Source: Mobula hypostoma (taxonomy: Eukaryota). From it: a stretch of DNA of 64,000 bases. The translations under genes were made by a program, and so were the position numbers. Position 1 is the first letter of the stretch, and the number at the start of each line of letters is the position of its first letter. Below, in pieces: positions 526 to 45,783 of this stretch. The stretch spans positions 26,786,001 through 26,850,000 of the forward strand of contig NC_086097.1 of the NCBI RefSeq assembly GCF_963921235.1. The letters run 5' to 3'. Under the pieces are notes generated by a model. It did not search any database. It saw only the letters and a program-made list of their open reading frames with translations, and was not told where the DNA came from.

Positions 526-1138
526 TGTAGGGTTCTCAGTAATATTAACTGTTAACTGCTAATTATAAAATGGCTTCTCTGAAGTGTAATAATGAAATGG
601 CTTCTTTGTAATGTTAACTATGAGGTAATGTTCTCTGTAGTTGAAATGTTTGGGTTATACTTATAGATAACGGAGGAACAAACCAATGGAAGCTATGTTA
701 TTCTATCTGTATGTGTGGGAACCTGGGTGAGTGCGCAGGTTTTTCGGGAGGAGAACCGAAGAGGAAGGACGTGCTGGACGCGCTCTGGTCGAACACCGTG
801 GTTGGTCCCAGGCGGTGGGTCGAGGAGGTCGGAGGAGATCAAATGGTGGAAAGAAGACCCTGTGAATTGAGCTCCAACAGTTGTGCATGAAGTGGTTGAA
901 CTCTAATAAGTTTGGCGCCTTTTACTTTCCGTTTATATTGTATCTCTATTAATTACGTAGTTTCAATAAGATTTATAAAGCGTAATCTGTAAATCGTACA
1001 TTGTGTGCTGTCTGATATTTGATGTGTGAGTTTGTGCCAGGGTGCATTACACAGCAACTACGTAAATGTGAGACACGGTTCGGTGGGCAGACGGGGTTTC
1101 CCCTAGACAAACACGAGCTGATAGCCCTGAGCATTACA
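526..1138 (+). mobile_element. Solo LTR with 4-bp TSD
   Basis: Starts TGTAG, ends ATTACA, flanked by AGTA (522-525 and 1139-1142); interrupts a short repeat that resumes at 1143; 3' half similar to LTR sequence at 30120-30377. Confidence 0.8.
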
Positions 1139-5435: not shown

Positions 5436-7033
5436 TATATCATCTTACTGTAATTTATAGTCTATTTTGTGTATTGCACTGTACCTCTGCCACAAAACAA
5501 CAGATTTCACAATATATATCAGTCTTAAAACACCTGATTCTGATTCAGTTCTGGAGTTGATGCATCCGAAGTGTTGAGTATGGGTAGCGGTTAGGCAGTT
5601 GCTGACATTGAAAGACTGCAAGCACCAGCCGAGCCAGACTAACAGCCAGCACTGTGTATATCTGGTTGCACGGCAACAGGCAACAGAAAGATAAATCCAT
5701 TGCACTTGGAGCTCCAGACGCACATTCATAAATTGGATGCGCTGACAGATGAGCAGGTTCCCCTGCACCTACTCTCCAAGGAGGCACTTACAGTGCAGGC
5801 CAGTAACTGTTAACAGATATGCAATGCAAAACCAAGATACAGTAAAAAATTTTGGTGCAGCTATTGCAACAAAAGGACTGAGATTTACATGTCATAGGCT
5901 CATGCAAGAGAACCATGTACATCTGTGTTGTTTATTCAGACCGCAGGGTTAGTGCTCTCTCATTTATCAATTGCCAACCTGCTCTGCTTTCACTGCGGTA
6001 TAACACCAGGACACAGCGCCTCACCAGAGCTTGCGTGCAGCCCTTAAAATTCTTCAAAAGGAAAGCCACTCTTCTCGATTTTAATCTGCCTCAAGTATGC
6101 CCTTGCTCACAAGAACAGCAATGTCTTCAAAGAGAACGGTCATAACCAGCAATAAATCCTCAGGGGGAATGCCACTTCAACCTCATTAAATGCCTTTAAT
6201 ACCCGTTTGAACACTTCAGCTCAGCTGCAGATTGCAAACAAGAGTTTTAGCCATATTCTCACCACAGAAATTGTACAGAATGGGAAACTCTTATTTACTC
6301 AAGGCCACACAAAAGTGCAGCATTTTTATTTAAATTTAAAGATTTTAAAGAGATCAGATTTTTCAAAAGGGCCAGTATTCAAATAATTTGAAGCATTTTG
6401 AGATCTCTGTTCCCAACAAGTAGGACCTGGATTGTGCAGGTCATACAGAGGGTTGTGACATCAATTACTGCTTCCTGATCACCTCTCCCTAAAGATCAGT
6501 CAACAAAGTCTGAATGATATCTCCTGTTACAGTTATTGACTGAAAAAACACCATTGTAATAGTGCTACAATCAAATCAAAAGGAAGGACAAGTCTTTCAC
6601 AACTACAGGTTAGTCTAATGCAGGCTACAAGCCAACAATGCTCTTAGACATGTAGTTGCTGTTCTAAAGTTGGAAAAGTGACAGCTAATCTATACCATAA
6701 ACAGCAAAAAATAATGGACTGATAACATGTTTTAGGATAATTAGGGCCAGGGCACCAGACAGAAACTTGGTCGGATTCTTCTTTGCCATTGTATTCTGGT
6801 ATCCCTCGTCCACTGAAAGAATCTGAAGGATGGCACCTATTGTGGACTGGTTGCAAACACAAAAAGCTGGAGGATTGCAGTGTGTCAGACATTATTTTTG
6901 GAGGAGAATGGACAGAAGACATTTCAGTTCATTCCAAACAACAGGAATTCTGCAAATGCTGGAAATTCAAGCAACACACATAAAAGTTGCTGGTGAATGC
7001 AGCAGGCCAGGCAGCATCTCTAGGAAGAGGTGC

Positions 7034-7069
7034 AGTCGACGTTTCAGGCCGAGACCCTTCGTCAGGACT
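7034..7069 (-). ncRNA. Minimal hammerhead ribozyme motif (inverted pLTR copy)
   Basis: Reverse complement of the 8369-8404 motif. Confidence 0.75.
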
Positions 7070-8368
7070 AACTGAAGGAAGAGTGAGTAAGGGATTTGAA
7101 AGTTGGAGGGGGAGGGGGAGATCCAAAATGATAGGAGAAGACAGGAGGGGGAGGGATGGAGCCAAGAGCTGGACAGGTGATAGGCAAAAGGGATACGAGA
7201 GGATCATGGGACAGGAGGTCTGGGAAGAAAGACAAGAGGGGGGGGACCCAGAGGATGGGCAAGGGGTATATTCAGAGGGGCAGAGGGAGAAAAAGGAGAG
7301 TGAGAGAAAGAATGTGTGTATAAAAATAAGTAACGGATGGGGTACGAGGGGGAGGTGGGGCATTAGCGGAAGTTAGAGAAGTCGATGTTCATGCCATCAG
7401 GTTGGAGGCTACCCAGACGGAATATAAGGTGTTGTTCCTCCAACCTGAGTGTGGCTTCATCTTTACAGTAGAGGAGGCCATGGATAGACATGTCAGAATG
7501 GGAATGGGATGTGGAATTAAAATGTGTGGCCACTGGGAGATCCTGCTTTCTCTGGCTTTCCCTCCCCCCCTCTCTCTGCATTCCGCAGGGATCGCTCCCT
7601 ACGCAACTCCCTTGTCCATTCGTACCCCCCATCCCTCCCCACTGATCTCCCTCCTGGCACTTATCCGTGTAAGCGGAACAAGTGCTACACATGCCCTTAT
7701 ACTTCCTCCCTTACCACCATTCAGGGCCCCAAACAGTCCTTCCAGGTGAGGCAACACTTCACCTGTGAGTCGACTGGGGTGATATACTGCGTCCGGTGCT
7801 CCCGATGTGGCCTTTTATATATTGGCGAGACCCGACGCAGACTGGGAGACGGCTTTGCTGAACATCTACGCTCTGTCCGCCAGAGAAAGCAGGATCTCCA
7901 GTGGCCACACATTTTAATTCCACATCCCATGCCCATTCTGACATGTCTATCCACGGCCTCCTCTACTGTAAAGATGAAGCCACACTCAGGTTGGAGAAAC
8001 AACACCTTATATTCCGTCTGGGTAGCCTCCAACCTGATGGCATGAACATCGACTTCTCTAACTTCCGCTAATGCCCCACCTCCCCCTCGTACCCCATCTG
8101 TTACTTATTTTTATACACACATTCTTTCTCTCACTCTCCTTTTTCTCCCTCTGTCCCTCTGAATATACCCGTTGCCCATCCTCTGGGTCCTGCCCCCCCT
8201 CCTTGTCTTTCTTCCTGGACCTCCTGTCCCATGATCCTCTCGTATCCCTTTTGCCTATCACCTGTCCAGCTCTTGGCTCCATCCCTCCCCCTCCTGTCTT
8301 CTCCTATCATTTTGGATCTCCCCCTCCCCCTCCAACTTTCAAATCCCTTACTCACTCTTCCTTCAGTT

Positions 8369-8404
8369 AGTCCTGACGAAGGGTCTCGGCCTGAAACGTC
8401 GACT
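8369..8404 (+). ncRNA. Minimal type I hammerhead ribozyme motif in PLE pLTR
   Basis: AGTC-CTGACGA-AGGGTCTCGGCCT-GAAAC-GTC-GACT: CUGANGA and GAAA core, GUC triplet, stem I AGTC/GACT. Confidence 0.75.
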
Positions 8405-8499
8405 GCACCTCTTCCTAGAGATGCTGCCTGGCCTGCTGTGTTCACCAGCAACTTTTATGTGTGTTGTCAGTTAATTCCAGATGACCCAATTCCCCACTA

Positions 8500-9035: not shown

Positions 9036-9420
9036 AATGTTGACTGTCCATTTCCCTCCATAAATGCTGTCTGACCTGTTGGGTGTCTCCAGCTGATTGC
9101 TTGCTCCAGATTCCAGCTTCTCCCTCATCTCTGATTATCAGATAAAGCAAAGCCCTTTGTGTTTCCCCTTCCCTGCCCTCTCCATCTGCCCATCACCCAC
9201 ACATTCCTTCCACCAGTTCCCCTCCCATTCCTTGCACAATCATCCGTCCTTCAACCCTTGATGATGTACATCTCCTCCCAGCTACTTATATCACCTTTCT
9301 CCATCTGTATCCACCTATAAGCTAACAACAGGAATTCTGCAGATGCTGGAAATTCAAGCAACACACATCAAAGTTGCTGGTGAATGCAGCAGGCCAGGCA
9401 GCATCTCTAGGAAGAGGTAC

Positions 9421-9456
9421 AGTCGACGTTTCAGGCTGAGACTCTTCGTCAGGACT
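9421..9456 (-). ncRNA. Minimal hammerhead ribozyme motif
   Basis: Reverse strand AGTC-CTGACGA-AGAGTCTCAGCCT-GAAAC-GTC-GACT; core intact, stem II variant. Confidence 0.65.
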
Positions 9457-10083
9457 AACTGAAGGAAGAGTTAGTAAGAGATTTGAAAGTGGGAGGGGGA
9501 GGGGGAGATCCAATGCTCCCGATGTGGCCTTCTATATATTGGCGAGACCCGACGCAGACTGGGAGACCGCTTTGCTGAACACCTATGCTCTGTCCGCCAG
9601 AGAAAGCAGGATCTCCCAGTGGCCACGCATTTTAATTCCACATCCCATTCCCATTCTGACATGTCTATTCACGGCCTCCTCTACTGTAAAGATGAAGCCA
9701 CACTCAGGTTGGAGGAACAACACCTTATATTCCGTCTGGGTAGCCTTCAACCTGATGGCATGAACATCGACTTCTCTAACTTCTGCTAATGCCCCACCTC
9801 CCCCTCGTACCCCATCCGTTATTTATTTTTATACACACATTCTTTCTCTCACTCTCCTTTTTCTCCCTCTGCCCCTCTGACTATACCCCTTGCCCATCCT
9901 CTGGTTCCCCCCCCCCGCCGTCTTTCTCCCTGGGCCTCCTGTCCCATGATCCTCTCATATCCCCTTTGCCTATCACCTGTCCAGCTCTTGGCTCCATCCC
10001 TCCCCCTCCTGTCTTCTCCTATCATTTTGGATCTCCTCCTCCCCCTCCCACTTTCAAATCTCTTACTAACTCTTCCTTCAGTT

Positions 10084-10119
10084 AGTCCTGACGAAGGGTC
10101 TCGGCCTGAAACGTCGACT
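10084..10119 (+). ncRNA. Minimal hammerhead ribozyme motif
   Basis: AGTC-CTGACGA-AGGGTCTCGGCCT-GAAAC-GTC-GACT. Confidence 0.75.
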
Positions 10120-10639
10120 GTTCCTCTTCCTAGAGATGCTGCCTGGCGTGCTGCGTTCACCAGCAACTTTGATGTGTGTTGCTCCACCTTTAAGGTGCTA
10201 GCTTTTGCTCACCCCTTCATTTTTATACAGTCTATCTCCCCCTTCCAGACTAAATGAGGGGTCTCAACCCAAAACGTCTGTAAGTGTCGGTATGGGGTTT
10301 GTTGGTTATCCCTGTGACTGCGAAGGTTTCCTCTGGGATGCTCCAGTTTCTTCCCACATTCCAAAGACATACGGATTAGGGTTAGTAACTTGTGGACAGG
10401 CTATGTTGGTGCTGGTACTGCAGGCTGCCCAGTACAAATCCTCACAGATTTGATTTGACAGAAATGGCCTATTTTACTGCATGCTTCGATGTCCATGTGA
10501 TAAGTAAAGCTCATCTTTATTTTGTCCCTCCATGGATGCTGCTGTTGAGTGCTTAGCGCATTTTGTGTTGCTCTAGATTCCAACATCTGGAGTCTCTTGC
10601 CTCATCTTTGATTGCATTTATATCAGTAGCGAGTGAGAG

Positions 10640-27482: not shown

Positions 27483-27769
27483 CTGGAAATGAATCAGAGG
27501 CAATTTGTCATCCATCTAGCATCTCCCACTAAGTATGTCAAAGGAGCATTCTCTGAACAAAATATTATCAAAGTTAGTACAGGTCACCAAAAGCTTGGTC
27601 AGAAAAGGGCAAAGAAAGGAAAGCTGGATCAGCATTTCGATAAAGGGTGGCGTGGTGGTGAATATCTGGGATATCTTGGGATGACCTGTAGCCACACTGC
27701 TCTGTTAATGCATTACTTGGATGTGGGCAAGATTGGGATTGATTTTGAGTCATGAAGCTATGGGGCTGC

Positions 27770-28025
27770 ACGGGAGCTTAGAGGTTAGTGTGACGCTTTA
27801 CAGCTCAGGGTTCGATTCCCACTGCTGTCTGTAAGGAATTTCTACGTTTTCCCCGTGACCGCGTGGTTCTCCTCTGGGTGCTGTGGTTTTCTCCCACTGT
27901 CCAAAGACATGCGGGTGAGGGTTTTTAAGTTGTAGGCATTCTACGTTGGCATCAGAAGAGTGGTGACACTTGCAGGCTGCCCCCGGCACATCTTTAACAC
28001 AAACAATGCACTTCACTGGATGTTT
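27770..28025 (+). mobile_element. tRNA-derived SINE-like repeat (further copies near 19070-19290, 26830-27140, 36335-36635, 39080-39360, 40210-40500, 40800-41070)
   Basis: B-box-like GGTTCGATTCCC followed by a core TCCCCGTGACCGCGTGG...TTTCTCCCAC...CCAAAGAC that recurs across the window. Confidence 0.65.
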
Positions 28026-28136
28026 CAAATTTCTAAGGGGGGCATAGCCAGTGGGAGCTAATCCCACAGGCCTGTATCACTTTAAACCTTCCCTTTGCAT
28101 GTACCTGTATGTAAGGGGTTTCTTCTTTCATGTTAC

Positions 28137-28175
28137 TGCGAGAGGTCCTGGCTTCAAATCCCGGACGAGCCCCCA
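28137..28175 (+). other. 3' half of tRNA-Pro including CCA (read as an extended PBS on the minus strand)
   Basis: TGCGAGAGGTCCTGGCTTCAAATCCCGGACGAGCCCCCA, 37/39 match to the recalled vertebrate tRNA-Pro 3' half plus CCA; minus strand reads LTR...CTACA-TT-TGGGGGCTCGTCCGGGAT. Confidence 0.9.
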
Positions 28176-28873
28176 AATGTAGCCCCCTGGTAAGCCTCAG
28201 GCTCGCTCAACTTGCTTTCGTCTAGGGGGAGCAGCCTTCAGCCCCGCCAAACTGGGTAATCAAGTTTGCGTGGATGCTGTGTGATGTACCCCACCCCACC
28301 AAATAACAGACAATACACCATATGCGATTAAATGATTACACTTTATAGATCTTACTGGAACTACGTAATTAATAGTGATAAAATATAAAAGGAAAATAAA
28401 AGGCGTCAAACTTATCAAAGTTCAACCACTTTGTGCACAACCATTCCTGCAGACACAAAAACCCAATCCAGATACAAACAGTCACATTGCTCCCAAACAG
28501 TAAACTTTATGCCCTGTTCCACAGGCACTACATAGGCCAACCTATCTGGGAGATCCTCCGAGACCTCTATAACCCCTCACCTAAGCCCCTCAGGCTCGGA
28601 CACTACTGGGGATACCTCCGGTCTGCTTGCCAACTCCTCTCTCACCATGCCCCCATTGCAACTCGGAGCCCCCGTCCTGTGTCCAGGGCCCCGCTTCTTT
28701 TCCTCAGGGTCCTGCTGTAACCCAGGCTGCCCACAGCTAGCCCTCCCCACTACACCTGACTCAGTGGGAGAAGGGCCAAAAGTCTCTTCCTCAATCAAGG
28801 GGAAGTTAGCGAAAGGCAGCATGTACCACACATCCAGCACATCATCCTTCGAATCCGTATTCTTCCTCATTCC

Positions 28874-29080
28874 CTCGATCGGTAGCTGCTGTTTGGTTTT
28901 CTCCAAACTAAAGCACTTAGCCTGGGCTGCCTCTGCATCCTCTTCAGCCTCCTGCAGTCGAGACGTCAGCTTCTTCTCTGATTCCTCCAACTCCCGCCCC
29001 AGTCTCAGCAGTTCTGACCCACGCTTCATGTCCATCTCCATCGGGGACGCAATTACACCACCAGCTTCTTCCAATCTGTT
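28874..29080 (-). pseudogene. Captured sarcomeric myosin heavy-chain rod fragment
   Basis: NRLEEAGGVIASPMEMDMKRGSELLRLGRELEES-EKKLTSRLQEAEEDAEAAQAKCFSLEKTKQQLPIE resembles the MYH segments ERLEEAGGATS.QIEMNKKREAE..K.RRDLEEA and ELEEAKKKLAQRLQEAEE.VEAVNAKC.SLEKTK.RLQ.E. Confidence 0.8.
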
Positions 29081-29130
29081 CTGGATCGATTTTTTGAGGC
29101 TGAAGAGGCTGCAGAGGCAGCCCAAGCTAA

Positions 29131-29641
29131 AAGCTGATTTATACTTGTGCATCAACTCGATGCCGTAACCTACGCAAGAGACCTACGCGCGTTGTGAGCA
29201 TTTATACTTGTTCATTTGTGTGTCTGCGTTGCTCTGCAATTCGCGCACGTCACTCATGCGCACACACCTGCCCACGCAAGGCTTCATGGTCATGGTAGTC
29301 TTTCTAGGGGTAAACACGAAGCGAGCTTCTTTTTTCGTAAAAGTGAAATGTGTCCTCCATAATTTCGGAGGTCTGTAAAGCTTTACGGAAAGCATTGCAG
29401 CCAGAGTTCCTTCCCTGCCCTTCAGTCGCCCAATGGGAAGCTATTGCAGTGTAGGAGGAAAAGCGATGCTACCAAGCGGACCTGTCATAGTTGTTGCGGT
29501 CTGTGTTGCCGCGATGCGTAGTTACATTTTGGGAGAGGTGCGCGTCAGGCTATGGCGTAGGGATCCACGTAGGCTATGGGTAGGGTTCACGGCTATGCCG
29601 TATCTACTGTATCAAGTTGACGCAGAAGTATAAATCAGCCT
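29131..29641. mobile_element. PIF/Harbinger-like MITE
   Basis: TIR A(A/G)GCTGATTTATACTT(G/C)TGC(A/G)TCAACT; flanked by TAA and TTA; the empty site GCTAAGTGC is visible in the opposite arm (about 28913-28921). Confidence 0.8.
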
Positions 29642-30681
29642 TTAGTGCTTCAGTTTGGAGAAAATCAAACAGCAGCTACCGATCGAGGGAATGAGGAAGA
29701 ATATGGATTCGAAGGATGATGTACTGGATGTGTGGTACATGCTGCCTTTCACTAACTTCCCCTTGATTGAGGAACAGACTTCTGGCCCTTCTCCTACTGA
29801 GTCAGGTGTAGTGGGGAGGGCTAGCTGTGGGCAGCCTGGGTTACAGCAGGACCCGGAAGGAAAAGAAGTGGGGCCCTGGACATGGGACAGGGGGCTCCGA
29901 GTTGCAGTGGGAGCATGAGTGAGGGATTGAGAGAGGATTTGGCAAGCAGACCGGAGGTATCCCCAGTAGTGTCCGAGCCTGACGGTCTCGGAGGATTAGG
30001 AAACTCCCAGATAGGTTGGCCTATGTAGCCCCTGGGGAACAGGGCGTAAGGTCTACTGTTTGGGAGCAATGTGACTGTTTGTACCTGGATTGGGTTTTTG
30101 TGTCTGCAGGAATGGTGGTGCACAAAGTGGTTGAACTTTGTTAAGTTTGGTGCCTTTTATTTTCCTTTGATATTTTATCTCTATTAATTACATAGTTCTG
30201 GTAAGATCTATAAAGTGTAATCATTTAATCGCATATGGTGTATTGTCTGTTATTTGGTGGGGTGGGGTACATCACACAGCATCCACTCAAACTTGATTAC
30301 TAGCTTGGCGGGGCCAAAGGCTGCTCCCCCTAGACGAAAGCAAGTTGAGCGAGCCTGAGGCTCACCAGGGGGCTACATATACACATGTTTTAAATGTAGT
30401 AATTATACCCACCTAGCAGCTCATTTTATTTACCCATGACTTTTCTTCAAAAAACAAGCCCCTCTGGTCCCTTTTAATTCACTGCTCGTCTCCTTATCTT
30501 AAACCTAAGCTGCTTAGTTCTGGACTACCCTACTCTCTGGGAAAAACTGTGACTATTTACTTTAATGGCCCTTATGATTTCCTAAACCTTTGTAAGCTCA
30601 CCTCTCAACTTCCTAAACTCCTGGCATGTCTAGTCTCTCCGTATAGCCTGGCCTGCAGTCAGTGAATGACACAGCACCAAA

Positions 30682-30712
30682 TTGAACTGAACTGAACTGA
30701 ACTGAACTGAAC
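30682..30712 (+). repeat. (TGAAC)n microsatellite
   Basis: Direct reading of the sequence. Confidence 0.9.
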
Positions 30713-31242
30713 ATTCCCTCCACAAATTGAACGACAAATTGAACTGAACTGAACAGCCCTGGACTGTTTCAATGACTCTGTGGTCTGATGTTTTATATTC
30801 TGGGTTTATTGTCGTTTTTTGCTGTTTGCCGATTTGTGTTTTTTTTTTGACCATTGGGTGTTTGATGTTTTTCTTTGAACAGTTTCCACGGTTTTCTTTG
30901 TTTCGTGGCTGTCTGTGAAAAGATGAATCTCAGGGTTGTATACCACATACATACTTTGATAATAAATGTACTTTGAACTTTAATTGCTCCTGCAGTCTGG
31001 ACCCAAGGAAGAAACATCACCAAGCAATACCGTTTGAACCCTTGAACGCAGCAGCATGTGTGAATAGTGCTGACATTAGGAACATCAGAACACAGAACAG
31101 GCCCTTCAGCTTATGATGCTGTGCCAACCTTTTAACCTAATCCAAAATCATCTAATCCTTCCCTCCACCATAGCACTCCACTTTACTTTCATCCACGTGC
31201 CTATCTAAGAGTTTCTGAAATACCGAGATGTATTTGCTTCTA

Positions 31243-31575
31243 CATTCGACCTTCACTGATCTGACTACCTGTAATCCAGTTCCTTTGATAATCCAGCACT
31301 GATTATGCTTCATGTGATCCTTCTGTAATTCGGGATTTTCACTAAACCGGCACTCCTCAGGTCCCAGTGGTGCCAGATTAGTGAAGGTTAGCTATTGCTT
31401 CATGTGATCCTTCTGTAATTCGGGATTTTCACTAAACCGGCACTCCTCAGGTCCCAGTGGTGCCAGATTAGTGAAGGTTAGCTATTGCTTCATGTGATCC
31501 TTCTGTAATTCGGCATTTTCACTAATCCGGCACTCCTCAGGTTCCAGTGGTGCCGGATTAGTGAAGGTCGACCTG
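31243..31575. mobile_element. Tc1/mariner-superfamily MITE with about 3 internal 90-bp tandem copies
   Basis: TA-CATTCGACCTTCACTGATC ... GATTAGTGAAGGTCGACCTG-TA; unit TGCTTCATGTGATCC... recurs at about 31306, 31396 and 31486. Confidence 0.75.
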
Positions 31576-40002: not shown

Positions 40003-40098
40003 CTTTGAAGGTTTGTATCCAAACATCATCACCACAGCAACCTTAAGGTCCTCCCTGGTCAGAAAGCCCTTCTGTCCTGAATCGCATTCTCGGAAAAC
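40003..40098 (-). CDS. EFCAB11: EFCAB11 exon 2 (VFRECDSGQKGFLTREDLKVAVVMMFGYKPSK)
   Basis: ctttctgcag| acceptor and AAG|gtaagt donor, 96 nt; matches recalled human VFKACDEDHKGYLSREDFKTAVVMLFGYKPSK. Confidence 0.95.
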
Positions 40099-44203: not shown

Positions 44204-45783
44204 TCAGCAATCGCTCCCAACAGAGGCCAGAGGGTCAGCAATCACTCCCAGAGGGCCAGAAATCACTCCCAGAGGGTCAGCAATCACTCCCAGAGGGCCA
44301 GCAATCACTCCCAGAGGGTCAGCAATCGCTCCCAACAGAGGCCAGAGGGTCAGCAATCACTCCCAGAGGGCCAGAAATCACTCCCAGAGGGTCAGCAATC
44401 ACTCCCAGAGGGCCAGCAATCACTCCCAGAGGGTCAGCAATCGCTCCCAACAGAGGCCAGAGGGTCAGCAATCACTCCCAGAGGGCCAGAAATCACTCCC
44501 AGAGGGTCAGCAATCACTCCCAGAGGGCCAGCAATCACTCCCAGAGGGTCAGCAATCGCTCCCAACAGAGGCCAGAGGGTCAGCAATCGCTCCAGAGGGC
44601 CAGCAATCACTCCCAGAGGGTCAGCAGTCGCTCCCAACAGAGGCCAGAGGGTCAGCAATCGCTCCAGAGGGCCAGCAATCACTCCCAGAGGGTCAGCAAT
44701 CACTCCCAGAGGGCCAGCAATCACTCCCAGAGGGCCAGCAATCACTCCCAGAGGGTCAGCAATCGCTCCCAACAGAGGCCAGAGGGTCAGCAATCACTCC
44801 CAGAGGGCCAGAAATCACTCCCAGAGGGCCAGCAATCACTCCCAGAGGGTCAGCAATCACTCCCAGAGGGCCAGCAATCACTCCCAGAGGGTCAGCAATC
44901 ACTCCCAGAGGGCCAGCAATCACTCCCAGAGGGTCAGCAATCGCTCCCAACAGAGGCCAGAGGGTCAGCAATCGCTCCAGAGGGCCAGCAATCACTCCCA
45001 GAGGGTCAGCAGTCGCTCCCAACAGAGGCCAGAGGGTCAGCAATCGCTCCAGAGGGCCAGCAATCACTCCCAGAGGGTCAGCAATCACTCCCAGAGGCCA
45101 GAGGGTCAGCAATCACTCCCAGAGGGCCAGAAATCACTCCCAGAGGGTCAGCAATCACTCCCAGAGGGCCAGCAATCACTCCCAGAGGGTCAGCAGTCGC
45201 TCCCAACAGAGGCCAGAGAGTCAGCAATCACTCCCAGAGGGCCAGCAATCACTCCCAGAGGGTCAGCAGTCGCTCCCAGAGGGTCAGCAGTCGCTCCCAA
45301 CAGAGGCCAGAGAGTTAGCAATCACTCCCAGAGGGCCAGAAATCACTCCCAGAGGGTCAGCAATCACTCCCAGAGGGCCAGAGGGTCAGCAATCGCTCCA
45401 GAGGGTCAGCAATCGCTCCAGAGGACCAGTGGGTCAGCAATTACTCACAGAGGGCCAGAGGGTCAGTAGTCGCTCCAGAGGGTCAGCAATCGCTCCAGAG
45501 GGCCAGAGGGTCAGCAATTACTCACAGAGGGCCAGAGGGTCAGCAGTCGCTCCCAGAGGGTCAGCAGTCGCTCCAGAGGGTCAGCAATCGCTCCAGAGGA
45601 CCAGTGGGTCAGCAATTACTCACAGAGGGCCAGAGGGTCAGTAGTCGCTCCCAGAGGGTCAGCAATCACTCCCAGAGGGCCAGAGGGTCAGCAGTCACTC
45701 CCAGAGGGTCAGCAATCACTCCCAGTGGGTCAGCAATTACTCACAGAGGGCCAGAGGGTCAGTGGGTCAGCAGTCGCTCCCAA
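44204..45783 (+). repeat. Minisatellite with a 21-bp core CAGCAATCACTCCCAGAGGG(T/C) and higher-order units
   Basis: Direct reading; a 115-bp higher-order unit starts at 44205, 44320 and 44435. Confidence 0.97.

What the first reader, a model, noticed from the sequence alone, without database searches (positions are those of the whole stretch)
28110..30377. Fold-back LTR insertion that looks like a fossil aberrant reverse-transcription product
Seen: one TG...CA insertion with a near-TSD (TGTA/TATA). Its parts in order are about 27 nt resembling an LTR start, a tRNA-Pro copy, an inverted LTR 3' portion (28178 to about 29095), then a forward LTR 3' portion (29096-30377). This gives about 770-bp inverted arms and no gag/pol. 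The arms carry many substitutions and indels relative to each other. Known: normal proviruses have direct LTRs. Inference: either a one-off template-switch product that kept integrase-compatible ends, or a non-autonomous palindromic LTR family able to form long dsRNA in the EFCAB11 pre-mRNA.
Basis: partly seen in the sequence, partly recalled or inferred. Interest (0 to 1): 0.8.

Follow-up and report, generated by a model that had tools for sequence, protein, structure and literature searches.

The report
Fold-back fossil of botched retrotransposition
A 2.3-kb insertion in a ray genome holds two mirror-image copies of a jumping gene's tail, with half of a host tRNA copied at one end; it is likely a one-off copying accident that was pasted in as one piece, and the tRNA copy likely stops at a chemical mark on the tRNA.

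Summary
The structure is real, but the arms are not simply LTR pieces. Each arm is the 3' tail of a myosin-carrying Gypsy element's internal ORF fused to the last ~263 nt of its LTR. U3 and the purine tract are skipped at the same point in both arms. A missed 511-bp TIR transposon sits in the right arm. The arms differ at 41 of 750 sites, so this is not an assembly hairpin. The tRNA-Pro copy is 39 nt (positions 38-76): 21 nt beyond the 18-nt primer site, ending next to G37. All four joints show 2-4 nt microhomology. In read contigs the LTR start has summed depth ~61,000 and the tRNA overshoot ~80, so there is no large family. Two related species appear to lack the insertion. Best reading: a single reverse-transcription accident (mis-transfer, fold-back, tRNA overshoot, U3 patch) inserted by a helper integrase. 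Mis-transfer and tRNA overshoot are described for HIV-1 proviruses. This scan has noted similar fossils on other DNA (e1-10273962, e1-8648906, e1-7808317) and the myosin family. The duplication length (4 or 2 bp) and the centre joint remain unverified.

The parts
28106..28109 (.). Left flank TGTA (left copy of a possible 4-bp duplication; or only its last two bases TA)
   Evidence: single-copy contigs of organisms D and E match the flank to 28110 and then run on for 315 and 203 unlike letters
28110..28139 (+). First 30 nt of the family LTR (U3 start, integrase end); last 3-4 nt shared with the tRNA copy
   Evidence: depth 61,490 vs 14.8 single copy in X1; family contigs leave the window sequence after 28140/28141 with other LTR sequence (tables 2 and 7)
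28137..28157 (+). tRNA-Pro positions 38-58: 21-nt overshoot beyond the primer-binding site, 19 of 21 identical, starting at the base after G37
   Evidence: 137 tRNA-Pro gene matches in 128 metagenome loci; 135 of 137 have the anticodon plus G directly upstream; chance at a fixed place 4e-10
28158..28175 (+). tRNA-Pro 3' 18 nt including CCA (complement of the family primer-binding site), then AA at 28176-28177
   Evidence: the longest family contigs start at 28153-28166 and run into U5 (table 8)
28178..28441 (-). Left arm, LTR 3' part (putative R-U5), antisense
   Evidence: 75% match to the solo LTR at 880-1140 stops at 28441; 45 contigs of run X9 leave at 28441 with upstream LTR sequence (table 7)
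28442..28873 (-). Left arm, 3' tail of the internal ORF, antisense; joined to R with U3 and purine tract missing
   Evidence: same peptide follows RT-type and myosin sequence in P0003 and P0005; depth falls from 80,003 to 4,969 across the joint in X1
28874..29086 (-). Captured myosin heavy-chain rod pieces (family cargo)
   Evidence: 27/40 and 20/36 identical to two separate rod segments of P0004
28952..29095 (.). Unpaired 144-nt spacer; centre joint at 29095/29096-29098 with 3-nt GAG microhomology
   Evidence: one paralogous contig of X1 matches to 29098 and then leaves (table 8)
29096..30114 (+). Right arm, internal ORF tail with end of the myosin piece, sense, interrupted by the TIR element
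   Evidence: 26 substitutions in 488 columns against the left arm
29131..29641 (.). Later nested non-autonomous TIR transposon, 16-nt TIRs (15/16), TAA/TTA flanks; Harbinger-like (label recalled)
   Evidence: summed depth up to 344,231 in X1
30115..30377 (+). Right arm, LTR 3' part (putative R-U5) ending in CA, a normal integrase end
   Evidence: 81% match to the solo LTR from 30115; 15 substitutions in 262 columns against the left arm; family copies have unrelated flanks at this end (table 7)
30378..30381 (.). Right flank TATA

Best explanation
The insertion is likely a single dead-end product of a tRNA-Pro-primed Gypsy reverse transcription that went wrong several times and was still inserted as one piece, likely by an integrase supplied in trans. 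Shown: the anatomy, the 39-nt tRNA copy, the skip of U3 and purine tract shared by both arms, microhomology at the joints, and low depth over the tRNA overshoot. Inferred order of events: (1) The tRNA-primed minus strand (bottom strand, from 30377) copies U5 and R, then jumps to the tail of the internal ORF instead of the 3' R. This skips U3 and the purine tract, so no plus-strand primer is made. (2) The strand folds back and copies itself, giving the second arm. (3) It runs into the still-attached tRNA, passes m1A58 and stops before G37 (likely m1G). (4) After RNase H removes the tRNA, a short plus-strand U3 start from the co-packaged RNA pairs through TGC(G) with the overhang, and the top strand is made by displacement. 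The result is a linear DNA with a U3 end and a U5 end. (5) At least 144 nt are lost from one side of the palindrome centre, during copying or later, leaving a spacer; the TIR element and point decay come later. The element lacks U3 promoter, purine tract and a correctly placed primer site, so it is predicted to be unable to move again.
For: tRNA copy with CCA, 21 nt past the primer site, ending at position 38; family contigs do not carry this overshoot. HIV-1 read-through products stop at a modified base 37 (PMC13191261 passages); m1G37 stops RT (PMC5066629 passages). Integrated HIV-1 proviruses show aberrant first-strand transfer at the R 5' end and tRNA inserts of 7-54 nt (PMC12657518 passages). 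Minus-strand self-priming and 2-nt template switches are reported (PMC4668388 passages). Both arms share the ORF-tail/R joint, while 45 X9 contigs show the normal upstream LTR there and one X9 contig shows another continuation of the ORF tail. One tRNA copy and one clean U5 end are what a single hairpin predicts. Arm differences are even (26/488 and 15/262), 28 of 41 are transitions, and 12 of 41 are CpG-type, including three CA-versus-TG pairs. At 15 listed sites where the left arm departs from family contigs, the right arm has the family letter at 9 and the left letter at 2; 4 are gaps or other letters. This fits arms that began alike and decayed separately. Per-arm divergence of about 2.8% is below half the roughly 8% flank difference to the apparently empty species D and E. 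One-sided centre deletions are the usual fate of long palindromes (PMC8701086 passages).
Against: Simple self-priming predicts that the first-made (right) arm is the longer one; the left arm is longer by 144 nt, so an extra deletion must be assumed. The arms differ by one base inside the ORF-tail/R joint, and the right-arm letter equals that of the one X9 contig of the ORF tail; this could mean two independent switches. Whether the joint lies at the transcription start is untested. No contig crossing the U3/tRNA joint, the ORF-tail/R joint or the centre joint was listed in any run, including the species' own. The duplication may be 2 bp rather than the 4 bp of the solo LTR at 526-1138. The stop at position 38 coincides with a 3-4 nt microhomology, so the switch point is known only to positions 38-41. 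m1G37 on ray tRNA-Pro is inferred.
Confidence: 0.55

Rival explanations
1. Same particle, two strands: a parent copy already lacked U3 and purine tract, and two tRNA-primed minus strands paired end to end through the 3-nt GAG/CTC overlap and extended on each other. One end overshot on its tRNA and was patched with a U3 start.
For: Gives the 144-nt longer left arm with no extra deletion; the overlap is exactly 29096-29098. The one-base difference inside the ORF-tail/R joint could reflect two templates.
Against: Needs two templates with the same rare joint and a third source of U3. It would leave an 18-nt primer-site overhang at the right end, where the sequence shows a clean CA. No contig with the ORF-tail/R joint was listed (that table is cut).
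Confidence: 0.25
2. A resident element (U3 start ... right arm) broke, and the gap was patched with an overshoot cDNA (tRNA-U5-R-ORF tail) in inverted orientation by microhomology-mediated end joining.
For: The outer ends are those of a normal element. Both inner joints have 3-4 nt microhomology. An unchecked scan note reads a similar overshoot cDNA in this genome as a break patch (e1-7808317).
Against: The patch must carry the same ORF-tail/R joint as the resident copy. Arm divergence is even and fits a common start. D and E look fully empty.
Confidence: 0.12
3. A non-autonomous palindromic family that moves as a unit and makes long dsRNA.
For: TG...CA ends; strong predicted duplex. Assembled contigs drop rare forms, and human-like tRNA sequence may be filtered out.
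Against: Depth over the overshoot (28144-28150) is 79.5, 36.2, 12.6 and 7.8 in four runs, against 61,490, 297,505, 29,847 and 106,526 over the LTR start, and part of it is tRNA genes. None of the 32 longest listed pieces crosses the U3/tRNA joint. It has no U3 promoter, purine tract or correctly oriented primer site.
Confidence: 0.04
4. Two independent insertions side by side, or a mis-assembly.
For: The outer duplication is imperfect; the centre and right joints were not seen in read contigs. Inverted LTR-element tandems by double insertion are known (PMC5932611 passages).
Against: No inner duplications and no LTR ends at the centre. Both arms share one deletion joint. 41 substitutions, 6 gaps and a nested transposon exclude a read-hairpin artefact. 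A single-copy contig matches 27966-28134 exactly across the left border, with 25 letters inside (possibly the assembly's own sample).
Confidence: 0.04

Closest known systems
Defective HIV-1 proviruses from aberrant first-strand transfer and delayed second-strand transfer with tRNA-Lys3 inserts (PMC12657518; passages of sections 8, 9, 11, 12 seen)
   Same: Jump from the R region to an internal site with loss of U3; tRNA primer copied past m1A58 and then a template switch; product found as proviral DNA.
   Different: Here a Gypsy element and tRNA-Pro. Both errors are in one molecule, with a ~770-bp fold-back and a 30-nt U3 patch that restores the missing integrase end. The passages seen describe no inversion (0 hits for 'inver'), and say that integration of U3-less products was not demonstrated.
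Plus-strand strong-stop read-through products P3-P5 of HIV-1 (PMC13191261 section 10 passages; PMC8599865 passages)
   Same: Overshoot past m1A58 ending at the modified base 37.
   Different: There in vitro, at ms2t6A37 of tRNA-Lys3. Here a germ-line fossil ending next to G37 of tRNA-Pro, with the modification inferred.
LTR-mediated retrocopies / non-autonomous chimeric LTR elements (PMC5131818 passages)
   Same: Explains the myosin cargo: host mRNA piece joined into the internal ORF by microsimilarity switches.
   Different: Those keep direct LTRs and can move again. The cargo predates this insertion and is shared by ray proteins.
Inverted tandems of LTR retrotransposons by double insertion (PMC5932611 passages)
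   Same: Two element parts in inverted orientation at one site.
   Different: There whole elements with target motif at the junction; here the junction is internal, there is no inner duplication, and both arms share a deletion joint.
DIRS elements with inverted terminal repeats (listing PMC5633606 only; features recalled)
   Same: Inverted terminal repeats on a retroelement.
   Different: DIRS use a tyrosine recombinase and no tRNA primer site (recalled). Here there is a tRNA-Pro site, TG...CA ends and Gypsy-type relatives.

Membership tests
Canonical Ty3/Gypsy LTR-element insertion | Two direct LTRs | tested here: not met
   Only a 30-nt U3 start and two inverted 263-nt LTR 3' parts
Canonical Ty3/Gypsy LTR-element insertion | TG...CA outer ends | tested here: met
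   the ends match family LTR ends
Canonical Ty3/Gypsy LTR-element insertion | 4-bp target duplication as in the neighbouring solo LTR | tested here: inconclusive
   TGTA/TATA (3 of 4); D and E match one base further, which fits TA/TA; their letters were not shown
Canonical Ty3/Gypsy LTR-element insertion | 18-nt primer-binding site just inside the 5' LTR | tested here: not met
   Site is present but inverted, next to the left end, and 39 nt long
Canonical Ty3/Gypsy LTR-element insertion | Polypurine tract before the 3' LTR | tested here: not met
   None in the 60 nt before the LTR part in either arm
Myosin-carrying Gypsy family of rays (as template) | Myosin rod pieces in frame ahead of the ORF tail | tested here: met
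   best hit P0005 81% identical and carries Pfam PF00078
Myosin-carrying Gypsy family of rays (as template) | Loss of own integrase | not tested
   From earlier scan notes; P0003 and P0005 show RT-type sequence followed by myosin, no full copy examined
Aberrant reverse-transcription integrants (mis-transfer, tRNA read-through) | Mature tRNA copied beyond position 58 | tested here: met
Aberrant reverse-transcription integrants (mis-transfer, tRNA read-through) | Deletion joint at or within R | not testable with these tools
   Transcription start of the LTR unknown; no raw RNA reads listed
Aberrant reverse-transcription integrants (mis-transfer, tRNA read-through) | Unique joints, single insertion event | tested here: inconclusive
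   Large family excluded and D, E apparently empty; no genome held to count copies
Mobile palindromic (fold-back) non-autonomous family | Many copies sharing the joints | tested here: not met
   Depth 79.5 over the overshoot vs 61,490 over the LTR start; no crossing piece among the 32 listed. A handful of copies is not excluded.
DIRS (inverted-repeat retroelements) | No tRNA primer site; tyrosine recombinase (recalled) | tested here: not met
   tRNA-Pro site present; no Pfam family on the ORF piece P0001

The most novel reading that the evidence does not exclude
This is one example of a recurring rescue route in vertebrate Gypsy particles. A minus strand with no purine tract self-primes, overshoots its tRNA to the m1G37 block, and uses that overhang to recruit a U3 start. 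A dead hairpin thus becomes an integration-competent palindrome, much like hairpin replication of small DNA genomes. Genomes would then hold many such fossils, which record where tRNAs were modified in ancient germ lines and seed long dsRNA against the parent family.
Probability: 0.2. Interest if true: 0.65.

Novelty: new variant of a known kind. Interest (0 to 1): 0.38.

Why it matters
If right, one locus records in vivo a chain of reverse-transcription errors known mainly from HIV-1 work: mis-transfer, self-priming, and tRNA overshoot to base 37. It also shows a way for a U3-less product to regain an integrase end, a point the HIV paper leaves open. A genome-wide count of overshoot lengths would read tRNA modification blocks from fossils. 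As a single old, dead copy it has no shown function, and the scan has noted similar fossils elsewhere.

Tried and rejected
No genome is held for this window, so joints could not be counted. ARAGORN found no tRNA gene in the window and Rfam no match at E<=1 in 27500-31000; the half tRNA is below their reach. Pfam: 0 families on P0001. The U5/primer-site pattern gave 0 matches in viral contigs. The peptide across the ORF-tail/R joint gave 6 weak hits with many short stretches, not followed up, and 0 of 13 candidates passing, so proteins do not tell whether that joint recurs. No RNA holder was listed; expression and editing were not tested. Runs of organisms B and C showed no cover at 28042 and 28050 (X5, X9) or 28011-28073 (X8); this is no evidence on presence or absence. 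Sequence look-ups in the scan's notes gave nothing. The global alignment was misled by the nested transposon and was replaced. Substitution types between arms are symmetric, with no hypermutation bias. Read-hairpin artefact rejected on arm divergence. DIRS rejected on the tRNA site. PMC3832253 passages did not bear on the question. Ten literature searches listed no paper whose title or abstract start describes an integrated fold-back LTR product with tRNA overshoot and U3 patch. Older subscription virology papers and all supplements were not seen and may hold such cases.

Full report
Setting. The window comes from a ray: 14 of 15 protein relatives of the ORF piece are from Mobula, Hypanus or Hemitrygon, and the other is a fish myosin. 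No whole genome is held, so copy counts rest on contigs of public runs. An EF-hand exon lies on the minus strand at 40003-40098; the name EFCAB11 is recalled, and that the insertion is intronic is likely but not shown.

Anatomy. On the plus strand: TGTA; a 30-nt LTR start (28110-28139); a tRNA-Pro copy (28137-28175); AA; the left arm in antisense (28178-29095); the right arm in sense (29096-30377); TATA. The paired parts are 774 and 768 nt, with 41 substitutions in 750 columns and 6 gap events; 28952-29095 is unpaired. A 511-bp TIR element with TAA/TTA flanks interrupts the right arm at 29131-29641; its Harbinger label is recalled.

The arms are mostly not LTR. A solo LTR of a related family at 526-1138 (AGTA/AGTA duplication) matches the arms only from 30115 and up to 28441. 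In run X9, 45 contigs leave the window at 28441 and continue with the sequence that precedes this point in the solo LTR. One contig continues the other side, the ORF tail, with 32 different letters. Summed depth in X1 falls from 80,003 to 4,969 across the joint. The peptide of the left arm carries two myosin rod segments (27/40 and 20/36 identical), and in ray proteins it follows RT-type sequence (P0003; P0005 with PF00078). So each arm is internal ORF tail fused to the last 263 nt of the LTR, with U3 and the purine tract skipped at the same point in both arms. The myosin-carrying family was noted before by this scan.

The tRNA copy. A window-derived pattern hit 128 metagenome loci. ARAGORN called tRNA-Pro in 12 of 12 tested and 137 times in the batch; 135 of 137 matches have the anticodon and G directly upstream. 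The window copy is 34 of 36 identical to the gene, adds CCA, and starts at position 38. The 18-nt primer site is 28158-28175; the 21-nt overshoot matches at 19 places (chance 4e-10). The longest family contigs begin at 28153-28166, so the overshoot is not a family trait. HIV-1 read-through products stop at m1A58, 55, 54 or modified base 37 (PMC13191261 passages; PMC8599865 passages). Human tRNA-Pro carries m1A58 (PMC11251516 passages), and m1G37 stops RT in other human tRNAs (PMC5066629 passages). m1G37 on ray tRNA-Pro is inferred.

Joints. U3/tRNA: family contigs continue with other LTR sequence after 28140 or 28141, so 3-4 nt (TGC or TGCG) are shared. Centre: a paralogous contig matches to 29098, so GAG is shared. 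ORF-tail/R: 2-4 nt, resting on one X9 contig; the two arms differ by one base inside this joint, which is unexplained.

One-off or family. In four runs the depth over the LTR start is 61,490, 297,505, 29,847 and 106,526; over 28144-28150 it is 79.5, 36.2, 12.6 and 7.8, partly tRNA genes. None of the 32 longest listed pieces crosses the U3/tRNA joint (2,906 more not shown). The known copy itself was not recovered there, so the test excludes a large family only. A single-copy X1 contig matches 27966-28134 exactly, 25 letters into the element; it may be the assembly's own sample and is short of the 31-letter rule. Single-copy contigs of organisms D and E follow the flank to 28110 and run on for 315 and 203 unlike letters, as an empty site would. 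Their letters were not shown. Their match ends one base inside the element, which fits a TA duplication as well as the 4-bp one.

Age and decay. Differences are even along the arms (26/488, 15/262); 28 of 41 are transitions; 12 of 41 are CpG-type. At 15 listed sites where the left arm departs from family contigs, the right arm has the family letter at 9 and the left letter at 2; 4 are gaps or other letters. These are the best-supported rows only; 264 rows were not shown. K2P distance 0.057 gives about 2.8% per arm, against about 8% flank difference to D and E (9 and 8 of 98 letters) and 1.9% to B (10 of 535). This fits arms that began alike after the split from D and E, but does not prove it.

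Mechanism. The simplest single-molecule route: mis-transfer of the minus strand to the ORF tail; no purine tract; fold-back; overshoot on the tRNA; pairing of a short U3 start with the overhang; displacement synthesis; integration with a U3 end and a U5 end; a one-sided loss at the centre. This accounts for the shared joint, the single tRNA copy, the clean right end and the need for the U3 patch. It needs the extra centre deletion, which is common at palindromes (PMC8701086 passages). End-to-end pairing of two minus strands needs no deletion but needs two templates with the same joint. A cDNA patch in a resident element is possible but less likely. Together the first two, a particle-borne accident inserted as one piece, carry about 0.8.

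Comparison. Aberrant first-strand transfer and tRNA inserts of 7-54 nt are described in HIV-1 proviruses (PMC12657518 passages); tRNA sequence at circle junctions in PMC5618025 (passages); self-priming in PMC4668388 (passages); inverted tandems by double insertion in PMC5932611 (passages); mRNA capture in PMC5131818 (passages). Ten searches listed no paper on the full combination; supplements and older subscription papers were not seen. Unchecked scan notes describe similar fossils in other genomes and in this one; they are leads, not support.

dsRNA. The arms would pair strongly (-1352 kcal/mol; perfect runs up to 86 bp), but 12 inverted pairs of 150 nt or more lie in 1-40000, three of them 94-97% alike, and no RNA data were at hand.

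Verdict. Real, old, most likely unique and dead; a detailed fossil of reverse-transcription errors; a new variant of a known kind; interest 0.38.

Noticed in passing
window 526-1138: Solo LTR of a related family, TG...CA, perfect 4-bp duplication AGTA/AGTA; 75-81% like the LTR part of the arms.
   Followed up: partly
window ~1190-1800: A further LTR-like fragment with weak similarity to the U5 part (24 nt at 87.5%).
   Followed up: no
window 6970-8466 and 9357-10183: Two head-to-head inverted insertions, 94-97% alike, with a YIGET-type motif; Penelope-like layout (label recalled). Younger and better dsRNA candidates than the finding.
   Followed up: no
window 29131-29641: High-copy TIR element nested in the right arm, CpG observed/expected 0.99 against 0.3-0.4 in the arms.
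   Followed up: partly
window 31306-31568: 2.9 tandem copies of a 90-bp unit, 97% alike, each unit holding a short internal inverted repeat.
   Followed up: no
window 44204-45762: Complex minisatellite built on a 21-nt unit with longer periods.
   Followed up: no
window 40003-40098 (-): 96-nt EF-hand exon with AG/GT borders; EFCAB11 by recall.
   Followed up: partly
window 28011-28073: Single-copy flank covered in runs of organisms A, D and E but not in the laid runs of B and C; unexplained, may be a filter or assembly gap.
   Followed up: no
proteins P0003, P0007-P0011, P0013: Ray gene models named as myosin, MYH16, TMEM192 or SDHAF3 contain this retroelement-myosin chimera, so some names likely come from exonised or mis-annotated copies.
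   Followed up: no
run X5, table 5c, 28848 to 28170: One contig joins a decayed primer site almost directly to the ORF tail: an internally deleted family copy in organism B.
   Followed up: no
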